This document shows, one piece after another, positions 28,146-29,931 of a stretch of 36,560 nucleotides of DNA. Position 1 is the first letter of the stretch. Each line of letters opens with the position of its first letter. The position numbers and the translations under genes are program-made. Location: IMG/VR virus record IMGVR_UViG_2724679539_000003, positions 1-36,560 of that record; one strand, given 5' to 3'. The DNA is from a virus (lineage: Duplodnaviria; Heunggongvirae; Uroviricota; Caudoviricetes). The notes under the pieces are model-generated. The model did not search any database and was not told where the DNA came from. It saw only the letters and a list, made by a program, of their open reading frames with translations.

Positions 28146-28496
28146 TTACTTCAGCCGTTCACGGGCCGTCTTCGCCTTATGACACGGCCAGCACAGACTC
28201 TGCAGGTTACTGTCGGCATCGGTGCCGCCATGCGCTTTGGGAATGATGTGGTCAACGGTTTTCGCCTCACCCACCACACCAGCATGCAGACATAATTGAC
28301 ATAAACCTTTGTCACGCTTCAGCACACGCGCGCGGATAACATCCCACTTCGAACCATAACCGCGCTGATGACGAGATTGCCCCGGCTTGTATTGTTTCCA
28401 GCCTTCGTTTTTGTGGCTTTCGCAGTAGCCTGACGGGTCTGTAGTGGTATTACGGCAGCCGCGAACGCGGCAGGATTTTGGGGTTCGTAGGGGCAT
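28146..28496 (-). CDS. Phage HNH endonuclease (terminase-associated)
   Basis: ORF 28146-28559; likely start ATG at 28496 (AGAGGA RBS); HNH motif CQLCLHAG...VDHIIPKAHGG...CWPCH. Confidence 0.85.
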   Translation of the reverse strand: MPLRTPKSCRVRGCRNTTTDPSGYCESHKNEGWKQYKPGQSRHQRGYGSKWDVIRARVLKRDKGLCQLCLHAGVVGEAKTVDHIIPKAHGGTDADSNLQSLCWPCHKAKTARERLK

Positions 28497-28646
28497 TGCA
28501 TAATCCTCTTGGATGGTTCGCGTACGATACGTGGCACCCTTCTCAGAATCGAATCGCACTCCATTCCGGTTTTGCCATAAACGATCTTTTATGCTTCGCT
28601 GGATGTAGTTGATAGTTGTTGAAACTCAATGAACAGGAGTTCACAA

Positions 28647-28982
28647 ATGAATAGTTATGAATGGGAATGGCTTTTGAACAAAGATGACACCCTATACTTT
28701 TTCCCCGTAGGCCATTCTGTAGAAGGTAATTACAAAATTCACTTTGAGTTGAGCGGTAGTTGTAACCTTAGAGTCTCAGATGCTGAATTGCATGGTAAAC
28801 CTGTACTGCTGTTCGAATACTTCGATGAAGATGATGACCGCCCTGCAATAATCGAAATATTAGAAACAACCACTACAACTGTGGAGGCGATGATCGCACA
28901 TCTGAATAGTATCGATAGTATTTACCATGAACCGATTTACAAAGCTGTTTACGAGTGGGCTGTAAAGTTTTTCTATCGATGA
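28647..28982 (+). CDS. Hypothetical small acidic protein (cassette A gene 1)
   Basis: ORF 28629-28982; likely start ATG at 28647 with AGGAG 8 nt upstream; AT-rich; opposite strand to the late operon. Confidence 0.6.
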   Translation: MNSYEWEWLLNKDDTLYFFPVGHSVEGNYKIHFELSGSCNLRVSDAELHGKPVLLFEYFDEDDDRPAIIEILETTTTTVEAMIAHLNSIDSIYHEPIYKAVYEWAVKFFYR

Positions 28983-29025
28983 TACTTCGTTATCTTTCTG
29001 GCATTCACAATACCTTTACATATTA

Positions 29026-29652
29026 ATGACATGCCAGCACAATACTGTCACTTACAACCGTTCGGATTACCTAGAGAAAAGTATGATTCAGGATTTACTG
29101 ATCGAAGCAATTAGTCACGATAGGATGCATAAAAAGTTAAATGAACTGAATGGCTACTTCTACAATCGCAAACATGACACACAAATACGTGATGAGTTAG
29201 TTGTTATACTCAATCAAATCAGCACACTAACTGCTTTAAGTGAGCATCCAAAACTCGGTATCGGCGCTGTTGACATATCACTTTATAACCAGTCGATATT
29301 AACGTCTGAACATAATGGCAATGTTGCAACCATCGAGATAAAACACCATTACCCAAAGGATTTACTTTATCGGCAAGTTCAAGAAGACATCATTTCCGAT
29401 ATTTCAAGAGTAATAGTTTCACCAACTACACACTTTATCCATATAATCCAGCAAAGAACCAAGATTAAAACTCCTTCTTTTGGTCAAGTGAAATTCCTTG
29501 AACGTGATGCAAGTGATATCAGCACTTATGTGCAATGTCTTGAGGAGCTAAGTTCATTTCCCAGTAATTTTCATAAAAAAAGTGTATGTATTGAGGTACT
29601 TGGTGAAATTATGTCGACATATACCTTTAACGTATATTCATTTGACAACTGA
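29026..29652 (+). CDS. Hypothetical protein, possible PD-(D/E)xK-like nuclease (cassette A gene 2)
   Basis: 208-aa AT-rich ORF (alternative start at 29083); possible motif GAVDIS...TIEIK; no confident family. Confidence 0.55.
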   Translation: MTCQHNTVTYNRSDYLEKSMIQDLLIEAISHDRMHKKLNELNGYFYNRKHDTQIRDELVVILNQISTLTALSEHPKLGIGAVDISLYNQSILTSEHNGNVATIEIKHHYPKDLLYRQVQEDIISDISRVIVSPTTHFIHIIQQRTKIKTPSFGQVKFLERDASDISTYVQCLEELSSFPSNFHKKSVCIEVLGEIMSTYTFNVYSFDN

Positions 29653-29673
29653 TTAATTTGACAATTTTATTGC

Positions 29674-29931
29674 TTAATGGTTAGTTCTCTCTGCATCTAT
29701 TTTACGAATATCAGCTTTATCCCGATTGCAGTTAGCCAGCGCAGACAACAGACTCACATTCAGCTCCAGACTGGCACCATACGTCAGCGGATTAGGTATA
29801 AACGGTACAGGAGTATCAGAAGTCAGGCTGGGTGGCAGTGGTGCCACCGGAACGCTCACGTAAACTGTCCGCGTACTTCCGCAACCGGTCAGCAGCGGCA
29901 GCAGGCACAGCACGTGAAGCACAATCATCAT
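29674..29931 (-). CDS. Rz1-like outer-membrane spanin lipoprotein
   Basis: Starts at the internal Met pair of ORF 29674-30159: MMIVLHVLCLLPLLTGCGS (lipobox LTGC), proline-rich, about 85 aa; +1 frame relative to Rz. Confidence 0.75.
   Translation of the reverse strand: MMIVLHVLCLLPLLTGCGSTRTVYVSVPVAPLPPSLTSDTPVPFIPNPLTYGASLELNVSLLSALANCNRDKADIRKIDAERTNH

What the first reader, a model, noticed from the sequence alone, without database searches (positions are those of the whole stretch)
28629..29652. Second antisense AT-rich two-gene cassette between the spanin genes and HNH/terminase
A small acidic protein with a strong AGGAG RBS is followed by a 208-aa protein, both on the plus strand inside the minus-strand late operon and convergent with Rz1. 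AT-rich. The second protein has a possible PD-(D/E)xK-like D...E-x-K arrangement (AVDIS...IEIK), which would suggest a nuclease with a small partner (toxin-immunity, anti-restriction or defence). This is speculative.
Basis: partly seen in the sequence, partly recalled or inferred. Interest (0 to 1): 0.75.

Follow-up and report, generated by a model that had tools for sequence, protein, structure and literature searches.

The report
Prophage cargo: orphan nuclease plus acidic protein
Two real accessory genes sit backwards in a known swap-in slot of an E. coli prophage; one encodes a stand-alone nuclease-like protein of a rare uncharacterised family (possibly an anti-phage weapon). The small acidic protein next to it is an independent passenger, not its dedicated partner.

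Summary
ORF1 is 28647-28982 (111 aa, pI 4.6, AGGAG 7 nt upstream). ORF2 is 29083-29652 (189 aa, not 208). Both lie on the plus strand in a 1.18-kb, 37.5% GC insert between the HNH start codon and the Rz1 stop of an E. coli HK97/e14-like prophage.

The nuclease guess for ORF2 is supported:
- A confident AF2 model (pLDDT 84) has the alpha-beta-beta-beta-alpha-beta PD-(D/E)xK core.
- Across 32 relatives, down to 18% identity, only K30, D64, E85 and K87 are invariant.

No Pfam, PADLOC or PDB sequence match reaches threshold, and Foldseek finds nothing. The family is rare: 40 representatives among 1.84 billion.

The "nuclease plus small partner" reading is not supported. The two genes co-occur only in one near-clonal E. 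coli lineage (about 1.4% of complete genomes). All 25 diverged ORF2 loci lack ORF1, and all 10 diverged ORF1 loci lack ORF2. A third small gene pairs with either one. No methyltransferase is linked.

Best reading: a composite moron made of two independently mobile cargo genes. ORF2 is probably a methyltransferase-independent nuclease that acts on foreign DNA; this role is inferred, not shown. Interest is moderate.

The parts
28497..29673 (.). Variable cargo insert (1177 bp, 37.5% GC) between the HNH start codon and the Rz1/lysC stop codon of the prophage late operon
   Evidence: Homology to related E. coli prophages breaks exactly at the HNH start codon. The same junction is empty (26 bp), a 290-bp spacer, a GrlR-like gene or a 169-aa gene in other prophages. 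GC is 37.5% against 54-55% in the neighbours.
28543..28578 (-). Eleven-codon remnant (MAKPEWSAIRF*) of the 5' end of a foreign small-terminase gene, carried in with the cargo
   Evidence: In loci where ORF1-type or ORF2-type genes sit next to a Terminase_2 or Sf6-type terS, that terS begins ATGGCAAAACCGGACTGG (MAKPDW). The window keeps only this stub, upstream of ORF1.
28635..28639 (+). AGGAG Shine-Dalgarno sequence, 7 nt before the ORF1 start
   Evidence: Read directly from the sequence.
28647..28982 (+). ORF1: 111-aa acidic cytoplasmic protein (pI 4.56) of unknown function, predicted as five strands plus two C-terminal helices; RefSeq WP_001089763.1, phrog_14397
28983..29082 (+). 100-bp spacer joining the two modules; contains a weak promoter-like site TTTACA-17-CACAAT (29015-29043) and a 7-bp inverted repeat, but no terminator
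   Evidence: One search gives the promoter-like site (2 found in the region, 4.4 expected by chance, so not significant). ORF1-alone loci carry hairpins and a terminator here that the window lacks. ORF2-alone loci carry a TATAAT about 40 nt upstream that the window lacks.
29083..29652 (+). ORF2: 189-aa stand-alone PD-(D/E)xK-type nuclease candidate; RefSeq WP_000613842.1, phrog_12494
29272..29274 (+). Codon for D64 (GAVD), the candidate metal-binding aspartate just before strand 2
29335..29343 (+). Codons for E85-I-K87 (IEIK), the candidate (D/E)xK on strand 3
28146..28496 (-). Left flank: HNH endonuclease gene of the packaging module (HNH, terS P27 family, terL)
   Evidence: RefSeq annotation of the 99.9% identical locus L001.
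29674..29931 (-). Right flank: Rz1-like o-spanin (lysC), convergent with ORF2, with 21 bp between the stop codons
   Evidence: RefSeq annotation of L001 transferred by the offset.

Best explanation
The 1.18-kb AT-rich insert is a composite moron. It consists of two independently mobile accessory genes joined into one antisense unit. They sit in the variable slot between the lysis cassette and the packaging genes of an E. coli HK97/e14-like prophage.

Shown:
1. Both ORFs are real genes under purifying selection.
2. The slot holds different cargo, or none, in related prophages.
3. ORF1-type, ORF2-type and a third 75-aa gene occupy the equivalent terS-proximal slot, alone or in different pairs, in many unrelated lambdoid backbones. 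The E. coli insert still carries an 11-codon stub of a foreign terS. It lacks the ORF1-side terminator and the ORF2-side TATAAT seen where each gene stands alone.
4. ORF2 has the fold and the invariant D...E-x-K signature (plus K30) of a PD-(D/E)xK nuclease. It belongs to a rare family that no library describes.

Inferred:
- ORF2 is an active Mg-dependent endonuclease. Because it is carried without a methyltransferase or any fixed partner, it must spare host DNA through its own specificity. Candidates are modified DNA, DNA ends or structures, or a rare site.
- Its most likely role is to attack incoming foreign DNA (superinfection exclusion or defence) when expressed from the lysogen.
- ORF1 is a separate cargo gene of unknown function. 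In E. coli it is probably co-transcribed with ORF2 only because the two modules were fused.
For: - Genes and starts.
- Selection.
- Hotspot: the empty junction L016, the 290-bp L018, the GrlR-like L017 and the 169-aa L015.
- Composition.
- Same slot in Enterobacter, Yersinia, Klebsiella and Citrobacter backbones with different terminases and lysis genes.
- Dissociation of the pair:
  - ORF2 loci outside the E. coli type lack ORF1.
  - E. coli-type ORF2 occurs without ORF1 in L051 and L052.
  - Diverged ORF1 loci lack ORF2.
  - [75-aa][ORF2] occurs in Enterobacter and [75-aa][ORF1] in L116.
- Fusion scars.
- Nuclease fold and motif: plus convergent weak hits to PDDEXK-type models.
- No linked methyltransferase.
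- Some remote relatives lie in defence neighbourhoods: Kiwa plus HsdM/HsdS on an ICE, and next to AbiU2.
Against: - No library model matches ORF2 itself: Pfam, NCBIfam and PADLOC give nothing. PDB sequence searches with profiles of the ORF2 family (A3, A4) give nothing either.
- Nuclease activity, expression in the lysogen and any anti-phage effect are untested.
- No convincing sigma-70 promoter is found in the window.
- Other remote relatives lie in housekeeping contexts: directly after dnaE, and among metabolic genes in Acinetobacter. A defence role is therefore not a family-wide signal.
- No isolated phage genome in INPHARED carries ORF2.
Confidence: 0.55

Rival explanations
1. Toxin-immunity or toxin-antitoxin pair. 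ORF2 would be a toxic nuclease held in check by the small acidic ORF1, acting as an abortive-infection or addiction module.
For: - ORF1 is small and acidic, lies just upstream, and is probably co-transcribed.
- In E. coli the two are almost always together: 79 and 80 of 5426 genomes.
- In Enterobacter another small acidic protein precedes ORF2.
Against: - ORF2 stands with no small upstream gene in Yersinia, Klebsiella and Pectobacterium, and in many IMG/VR prophages.
- Even 96%-identical E. coli-type ORF2 occurs without ORF1, in L051 and L052.
- All 10 diverged ORF1 loci lack ORF2.
- The E. coli co-occurrence is one near-clonal lineage at 95-100% identity, so it reflects descent, not selection.
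- ORF1 is kept when IS3 disrupts ORF2. Orphan immunity genes also behave this way, so this point is neutral.
Confidence: 0.1
2. ORF2 is the endonuclease of a type II restriction-modification system whose methyltransferase lies elsewhere.
For: - The best structural matches are type II enzymes: SwaI, BglI and EcoRV.
- One UniRef relative is named 'restriction endonuclease', and one relative sits just upstream of HsdM and HsdS.
- Some E. coli prophages with the cassette carry a DNA methyltransferase between the holin and Q genes.
Against: - That methyltransferase has no homologue anywhere in the window, and lies near only some cassette copies.
- No methyltransferase neighbours ORF2 in the Enterobacter, Klebsiella or Pectobacterium loci. 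Yersinia and Citrobacter have methyltransferase-type genes only 3-4 kb away, beyond the lysis genes.
- One relative lies directly after dnaE with no methyltransferase.
- A mobile restriction gene without a linked methyltransferase would kill new hosts.
Confidence: 0.05
3. ORF2 is a free-standing homing-type endonuclease: a selfish gene that cuts ORF2-less phage genomes near terS and spreads by recombinational repair, dragging flanking DNA with it.
For: - It is a stand-alone intergenic nuclease with no partner.
- It lies at the same site, next to the terS start or after the lysis genes, across very different backbones.
- The E. coli copy carries a stub of a foreign terS 5' end, as co-conversion would leave.
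Against: - Non-nuclease cargo (ORF1 and the 75-aa gene) uses the same slot with the same terS stub. The conserved terS 5' sequence alone can therefore explain the exchange.
- Relatives also occur outside phages.
- No target site is known.
- AT-rich antisense orientation is typical of lysogen-expressed morons. This point rests on general knowledge and on the moron definition in PMC2629481.
Confidence: 0.1
4. ORF2 serves the phage's own lytic cycle or DNA metabolism (recombination, repair or host-DNA processing), or is a decaying passenger with no current function. Neither gene affects superinfection.
For: - One remote relative is directly downstream of dnaE and one lies among housekeeping genes.
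- No promoter is evident in the window.
- IS3 insertions in ORF2 are tolerated.
Against: - The catalytic-type residues are strictly conserved and dN/dS is well below 1, which argues against decay.
- Antisense orientation within the late operon argues against late lytic expression.
- The gene is absent from most related prophages, so it is not needed for the phage life cycle.
Confidence: 0.2

Closest known systems
Type II restriction endonucleases of the PD-(D/E)xK fold, EcoRV-like branch (R.SwaI 5tgq, BglI, EcoRV, HincII, MspI)
   Different: - Only 13-17% identity in the structural alignments, and no sequence or profile match.
- Foldseek finds none of them.
- There is no cognate methyltransferase.
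- ORF2 is smaller at 189 aa.
- It is carried as solitary prophage cargo.
HSDR_N (PF04313) and related stand-alone PDDEXK-clan domains (PDDEXK_9, DUF234, Mrr-like)
   Same: P0043, a relative 47% identical to ORF2, matches HSDR_N over residues 9-93, the segment from helix 1 to the ExK strand. Other relatives give weak PDDEXK_9, DUF234 and DpnII-MboI hits over the same core.
   Different: - All hits are below the curated cut-offs (22.2 against 25.1 bits at best).
- ORF2 itself gives no hit.
- There is no helicase or translocase module.
Shedu (SduA, DUF4263): single-gene PD-(D/E)xK anti-phage nuclease
   Same: It is a single-gene nuclease carried without a methyltransferase. One family member matches the PADLOC SduA model at E 1e-5.
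   Different: - ORF2 and 31 of the 32 members scanned do not match.
- ORF2 is, from memory, about half the size of SduA and so would lack its N-terminal sensor region.
- No phenotype is known.
Lambda bor and other morons at the lysis-packaging junction of lambdoid phages
   Same: Position just after Rz/Rz1, orientation opposite to the late operon, presence or absence among related phages, and deviant base composition. The moron definition comes from PMC2629481. The position of bor is from memory.
   Different: The products are unrelated; bor is a lipoprotein. Here two separately mobile genes have been fused.
Nuclease toxin-immunity pairs (for example the CdiA-CT/CdiI EC869 PD-(D/E)xK toxin)
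   Different: The pair is not conserved. There is no delivery domain, and the nuclease is frequently solitary.

Membership tests
PD-(D/E)xK nuclease superfamily (ORF2) | Alpha-beta-beta-beta-alpha-beta core | tested here: met
   In the AF2 model (pLDDT 84, pTM 0.85) the elements are H29-46, E50-53, E65-68, E80-89, H97-107 and E117-127.
PD-(D/E)xK nuclease superfamily (ORF2) | Conserved D ... (D/E)-x-K on strands 2 and 3 | tested here: met
   D64, E85 and K87, with K30, are the only invariant columns in 32 sequences down to 18% identity. E32, E54 and P56 are nearly invariant.
PD-(D/E)xK nuclease superfamily (ORF2) | Significant structural match to solved members | tested here: inconclusive
PD-(D/E)xK nuclease superfamily (ORF2) | Significant sequence or profile match to a curated family of the clan | tested here: inconclusive
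   No hit for ORF2. Relatives give only sub-threshold hits: HSDR_N at 22.2 bits against a 25.1 cut-off, plus PDDEXK_9, DUF234 and REase_II.
PD-(D/E)xK nuclease superfamily (ORF2) | Metal-dependent nuclease activity | not testable with these tools
   This needs biochemistry.
Type II restriction-modification system | Cognate DNA methyltransferase genetically linked to the endonuclease | tested here: not met
   There is no methyltransferase between HNH and Q in the window. The methyltransferase of the sister prophage L001 is absent from the whole window. None lies next to ORF2 in the five other genera; the nearest methyltransferase-type genes, in Yersinia and Citrobacter, are 3-4 kb away beyond the lysis genes.
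Toxin-antitoxin or toxin-immunity gene pair (ORF1 + ORF2) | The two genes are conserved as a pair across lineages | tested here: not met
   IMG/VR and genome loci show none of 25 diverged ORF2 loci with ORF1 and none of 10 diverged ORF1 loci with ORF2. L051 and L052 carry E. coli-type ORF2 without ORF1.
Toxin-antitoxin or toxin-immunity gene pair (ORF1 + ORF2) | Toxicity of gene 2 neutralised by gene 1, through a physical complex | not testable with these tools
Known anti-phage defence systems (PADLOC-DB v2) | Match to a system protein model | tested here: not met
   There are no hits for ORF1 or ORF2 at E up to 1. One of 32 relatives matches SduA at 1e-5.
Moron (independently acquired accessory unit in a phage operon) | Present or absent at one site among otherwise related phages, and not needed for morphogenesis or lysis | tested here: met
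   The junction is empty or holds other cargo in related E. coli prophages. Only 75-80 of 5426 genomes carry the cassette.
Moron (independently acquired accessory unit in a phage operon) | Deviant nucleotide composition | tested here: met
   37.5% GC against 54-55% in the flanking genes.
Moron (independently acquired accessory unit in a phage operon) | Own promoter and terminator, with expression from the prophage | tested here: inconclusive
   The window has only a weak promoter-like site at 29015-29043 and no terminator. A perfect TATAAT is kept upstream of ORF2 in 4 of 5 other genera, but the scan finds no -35 for it. Expression data are lacking.

The most novel reading that the evidence does not exclude
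ORF2 founds a new family of compact (about 190 aa), methyltransferase-independent, single-gene anti-phage nucleases. It would spare the host because it recognises modified DNA, free ends or a replication structure. ORF1 and the 75-aa acidic protein would be further uncharacterised defence or counter-defence modules. Together they would form a combinatorial cargo set that lambdoid prophages exchange at the conserved terS 5' boundary.
Probability: 0.3. Interest if true: 0.6.

Novelty: new member of a known kind. Interest (0 to 1): 0.38.

Why it matters
If ORF2 is an active nuclease that protects lysogens, it would add a very small, partner-free defence gene to the known repertoire. It would also mark the terS-proximal slot of lambdoid prophages as a place to mine for more.

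The mix-and-match of three small genes at this slot is a clean example of how prophage cargo is assembled by recombination at a conserved gene boundary. It is also a caution: adjacency in one well-sampled species such as E. coli can mimic a functional gene pair.

As it stands, the finding is an uncharacterised member of a very large and well-known nuclease superfamily in a typical moron position. That is useful, but not surprising to a specialist.

Tried and rejected
- Library searches for both proteins found nothing meaningful. Pfam, NCBIfam and PADLOC had no hit above noise. PHROGs returned only 'unknown function' families.
- PDB sequence searches with family profiles A3, A4 and A2 found nothing credible.
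- Foldseek against the PDB for ORF2 gave no significant hit. The afdb50 library was unavailable.
- No isolated phage in INPHARED matches ORF2, by DNA or protein.
- A literature search for the accessions and PHROG ids returned no papers. The Gifsy defence gene gipd474 is an ATPase and unrelated. The phage-hotspot preprint has nothing on this junction.
- Rfam found no RNA family, and the repeat search found no terminal repeats or transposon ends around the insert.
- Promoter scans found no convincing sigma-70 promoter for ORF1 in the window, or for ORF2 in Klebsiella or Yersinia.
- PDB sequence searches could not annotate three other cargo genes found beside ORF2 homologues in L057, L066 and L074. 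I therefore do not claim that those neighbours are defence genes.
- Rejected: the 208-aa reading of ORF2 and the 117-aa reading of ORF1.
- Rejected: a link to the DNA methyltransferase seen in sister prophages.
- I did not run the expensive genome contigs or metagenome scans, because the viral and genome loci already answered the pairing question.

Full report
**What is there.** The window is an E. coli prophage. The region around the finding is 99.9% identical to the chromosome of E. coli UPEC_U013, among others. RefSeq annotates that locus, on the minus strand, as major capsid, prohead protease, portal, terL, terS (P27 family), HNH, then Rz1/lysC, Rz (DUF2570), endolysin and holin.

Two plus-strand ORFs lie between HNH and Rz1. 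The real starts are 28647 for ORF1 and 29083 for ORF2.
- ORF1 (111 aa): the AGGAG at 28635-28639 lies 7 nt upstream of the 28647 ATG and inside the longer reading.
- ORF2 (189 aa, MIQDLL): every homologue from other genera starts at MIQ, and the upstream sequence is not conserved as coding.
- RefSeq (WP_001089763.1 and WP_000613842.1) and the PHROG profiles, matched end to end, agree with both starts.

ORF1 is acidic, with pI 4.56. The insert 28497-29673 is 37.5% GC against 54-55% for HNH and terL. Both are genuine genes. Homologues at 58-77% identity keep frame and length, and non-synonymous differences (pN 0.16-0.24) are far fewer than synonymous ones (pS 0.62-0.91).

**The site is a cargo slot.** Aligning related E. 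coli prophages shows that homology stops exactly at the HNH start codon. Between HNH and Rz1 other prophages have one of the following:
- nothing (26 bp, L016);
- a 290-bp spacer (L018);
- a GrlR-like gene (L017);
- a 169-aa gene (L015).

Only 75-80 of 5426 complete E. coli genomes carry this cassette, at 95-100% identity. [quoted passage not shown]

**ORF2.** No Pfam, NCBIfam or PADLOC model matches it, and PDB sequence searches with profiles of its family (A3, A4) match nothing either. The family is small. There are 27 clusters in the 5.8-billion-protein index. A profile search of 1.84 billion cluster representatives found only 40 with E at or below 1e-3.

Three lines of evidence point to a PD-(D/E)xK nuclease.
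1. An AlphaFold2 model built on 13 homologues is confident (pLDDT 84, pTM 0.85). Its order of elements is H29-46, E50-53, E65-68, E80-89, H97-107, E117-127, which is the classic alpha-beta-beta-beta-alpha-beta core of PD-(D/E)xK nucleases.
3. In an alignment of 32 family members down to 18% identity, the only invariant columns are K30, D64, E85 and K87. N28, E32, R36, E54, P56, D93 and D106 are nearly invariant. D64 lies just before strand 2 and E85-x-K87 on strand 3, exactly where the superfamily places its catalytic residues.

Several relatives also give weak hits to nuclease models over this same core:
- HSDR_N at 22.2 bits (cut-off 25.1) in a 47%-identical relative;
- PDDEXK_9, DUF234 and DpnII-MboI;
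- PADLOC REase_II, and SduA at 1e-5 in one member.

Against this, Foldseek finds no significant PDB match, and I could not inspect the model coordinates. I rate 'ORF2 is a PD-(D/E)xK-type nuclease' at about 0.75.

**The pair is not a pair.** ORF2 homologues (60-72% identity) sit in the same place, antisense between the lysis genes and terS or HNH. Their backbones have quite different terminases, portals and lysis genes.
- In Enterobacter an unrelated 75-aa acidic ORF precedes ORF2.
- In Yersinia, Klebsiella and Citrobacter no ORF1 homologue is present. Yersinia and Klebsiella have no credible small upstream gene at all.
- In Pectobacterium ORF2 is also alone, but in a non-phage chromosomal setting.

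ORF1 homologues (58-77% identity) sit alone, 68 bp from the terS start, in other prophages.

A scan of IMG/VR makes this quantitative.
- Of 54 ORF2 loci, all 25 diverged ones (50-70% identity) lack ORF1.
- Two E. coli-type copies (96% identity, L051 and L052) have a 151-aa minus-strand gene in place of ORF1.
- Of 36 further ORF1 loci, the 26 E. coli-type copies all have ORF2 and the 10 diverged ones never do.
- The 75-aa gene that precedes ORF2 in Enterobacter precedes ORF1 in L116.

Three small cargo genes therefore occur singly or in different pairs. The E. coli pairing reflects one recent lineage, not a conserved functional unit.

**Scars of fusion.** Where ORF1-type or ORF2-type genes abut a terS, that terS begins ATGGCAAAACCGGACTGG (MAKPDW). 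The window, whose neighbour is HNH, keeps only an 11-codon stub (MAKPEWSAIRF*, 28543-28578, minus strand) upstream of ORF1. The cargo therefore came from a phage with that kind of terS.

ORF1-alone loci have two hairpins, one terminator-like, after the stop codon. ORF2 in four of five other genera has a perfect TATAAT about 40 nt upstream. The window has neither. It has only a 100-bp spacer with a weak promoter-like site, TTTACA-17-CACAAT at 29015-29043, which is not above chance. In E. coli the two genes are thus probably one transcription unit. The promoter is not identified.

**No methyltransferase.** Some sister prophages carry a DNA methyltransferase between the holin and Q genes. The window has no homologue of it anywhere, and only some cassette copies have it nearby. 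The window's holin-Q interval holds two other AT-rich genes without Pfam matches.

Nothing methyltransferase-like lies next to ORF2 in the five other genera. Yersinia and Citrobacter have methyltransferase-type genes only 3-4 kb away, beyond the lysis genes. A mobile nuclease carried alone must spare host DNA through its own specificity.

**Remote relatives.** Their contexts are mixed.
- In Tamlana one lies between Kiwa (KwaA, KwaB) and HsdM-HsdS on an RteC-type element.
- In Tenuifilum one lies near a HEPN AbiU2 gene, with a 93-aa repeat protein upstream.
- In Acinetobacter a 311-aa form lies among metabolic genes, and some relatives are fused to DUF6508.
- One relative follows dnaE directly.

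This is compatible with a defence role but does not prove one.

**ORF1.** It has no informative homology. The model is weak (pLDDT 66: five strands and two helices) and the fold search is uninformative. It is a conserved, acidic, cytoplasmic protein of unknown function and an independent cargo gene.

**Conclusion.** The finding is real. The nuclease idea is supported at the level of fold and motif. The partner idea is not supported.

The best reading is a composite moron. Its larger gene encodes a solitary PD-(D/E)xK nuclease of a rare, undescribed family. That nuclease most plausibly acts on incoming foreign DNA; this is inferred at about 0.4 on its own.

Rivals and their weights:
- toxin-immunity pair, 0.1;
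- true restriction-modification endonuclease, 0.05;
- homing-type selfish nuclease, 0.1;
- phage-own or other non-defence function, 0.2.

This is a new member of a known kind and of moderate interest.

Noticed in passing
window 28543-28578 (minus strand): An 11-codon stub (MAKPEWSAIRF*) matches the conserved 5' end (MAKPDW...) of Terminase_2 and Sf6-type small-terminase genes. It was carried into an HNH/P27-terS backbone with the cargo. The conserved terS start looks like a recombination boundary for cargo exchange.
   Followed up: partly
L003 5683-5907, L116 3657-3881 (IMG/VR), L002-L006: A third small acidic cargo gene (75 aa, pI 4.65) precedes ORF2 in Enterobacter and precedes an ORF1 homologue in L116. 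Three genes mix and match in the terS-proximal slot.
   Followed up: partly
L023 (E. coli PS1Thumoskin9) and L024 (E. coli CD45); also L082-L084: IS3 is inserted at about nt 112-115 of ORF2 in several E. coli genomes. In CD45 the sequence beyond the IS3 runs into icd, so part of the prophage has been deleted. This suggests that this prophage family sits at icd, as e14 does. Many 'partial' ORF2 proteins in draft assemblies probably reflect such insertions.
   Followed up: partly
window 31284-32898 (plus strand): This is the other antisense AT-rich cassette (30-35% GC) between the holin and Q genes, with 340-aa and 194-aa ORFs and no credible Pfam match. It occurs without the ORF1-ORF2 cassette in other E. 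coli genomes and assorts independently. No complete E. coli genome in the collection has both as in this window.
   Followed up: partly
L001 8676-9728 against the window: Sister prophages such as UPEC_U013 carry a 350-aa DNA methyltransferase and a small ORF between the holin and Q genes. The window has no homologue of it anywhere.
   Followed up: yes
window 7339-8172 (minus strand): A 277-aa HNH protein, which resembles e14's McrA (a comparison from memory, not tested), lies in an AT-rich stretch at the prophage end. A 185-aa tyrosine-recombinase fragment lies at 6270-6827. Beyond it are an inverse-autotransporter/invasin gene (940-4212) and a PhzF-family gene (5346-6173).
   Followed up: no
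L019 3244-8521 (Tamlana haliotis): A remote ORF2 relative lies between Kiwa (KwaA-KwaB) and HsdM-HsdS, with no HsdR in view, on an RteC/HTH_17 element and followed by a Fic gene. Relatives of ORF2 weakly resemble the HsdR N-terminal nuclease domain. A small nuclease working with a type I methylase would be worth testing.
   Followed up: no
P0109-P0116, P0143 (Acinetobacter and metagenomes): About 310-aa forms of the ORF2 family carry a DUF6508 (PF20118) domain. Its function is unknown, but it could hint at how the nuclease is targeted.
   Followed up: no
L074 2501-3610, L057 3080-3802, L066 2175-3068: Other unannotated cargo genes share the slot with ORF2 homologues. They comprise a 369-aa, a 240-aa and a 297-aa protein. 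The 297-aa protein has a trypsin-like GTGFF...NYHV motif. None has a PDB sequence match.
   Followed up: partly
window 29006-29054: An imperfect 17-nt direct repeat (CACAATACCTTTACATA and CACAATACTGTCACTTA, 32 nt apart) lies in the ORF1-ORF2 spacer and overlaps the weak promoter-like site. It may be an operator or may be chance.
   Followed up: no
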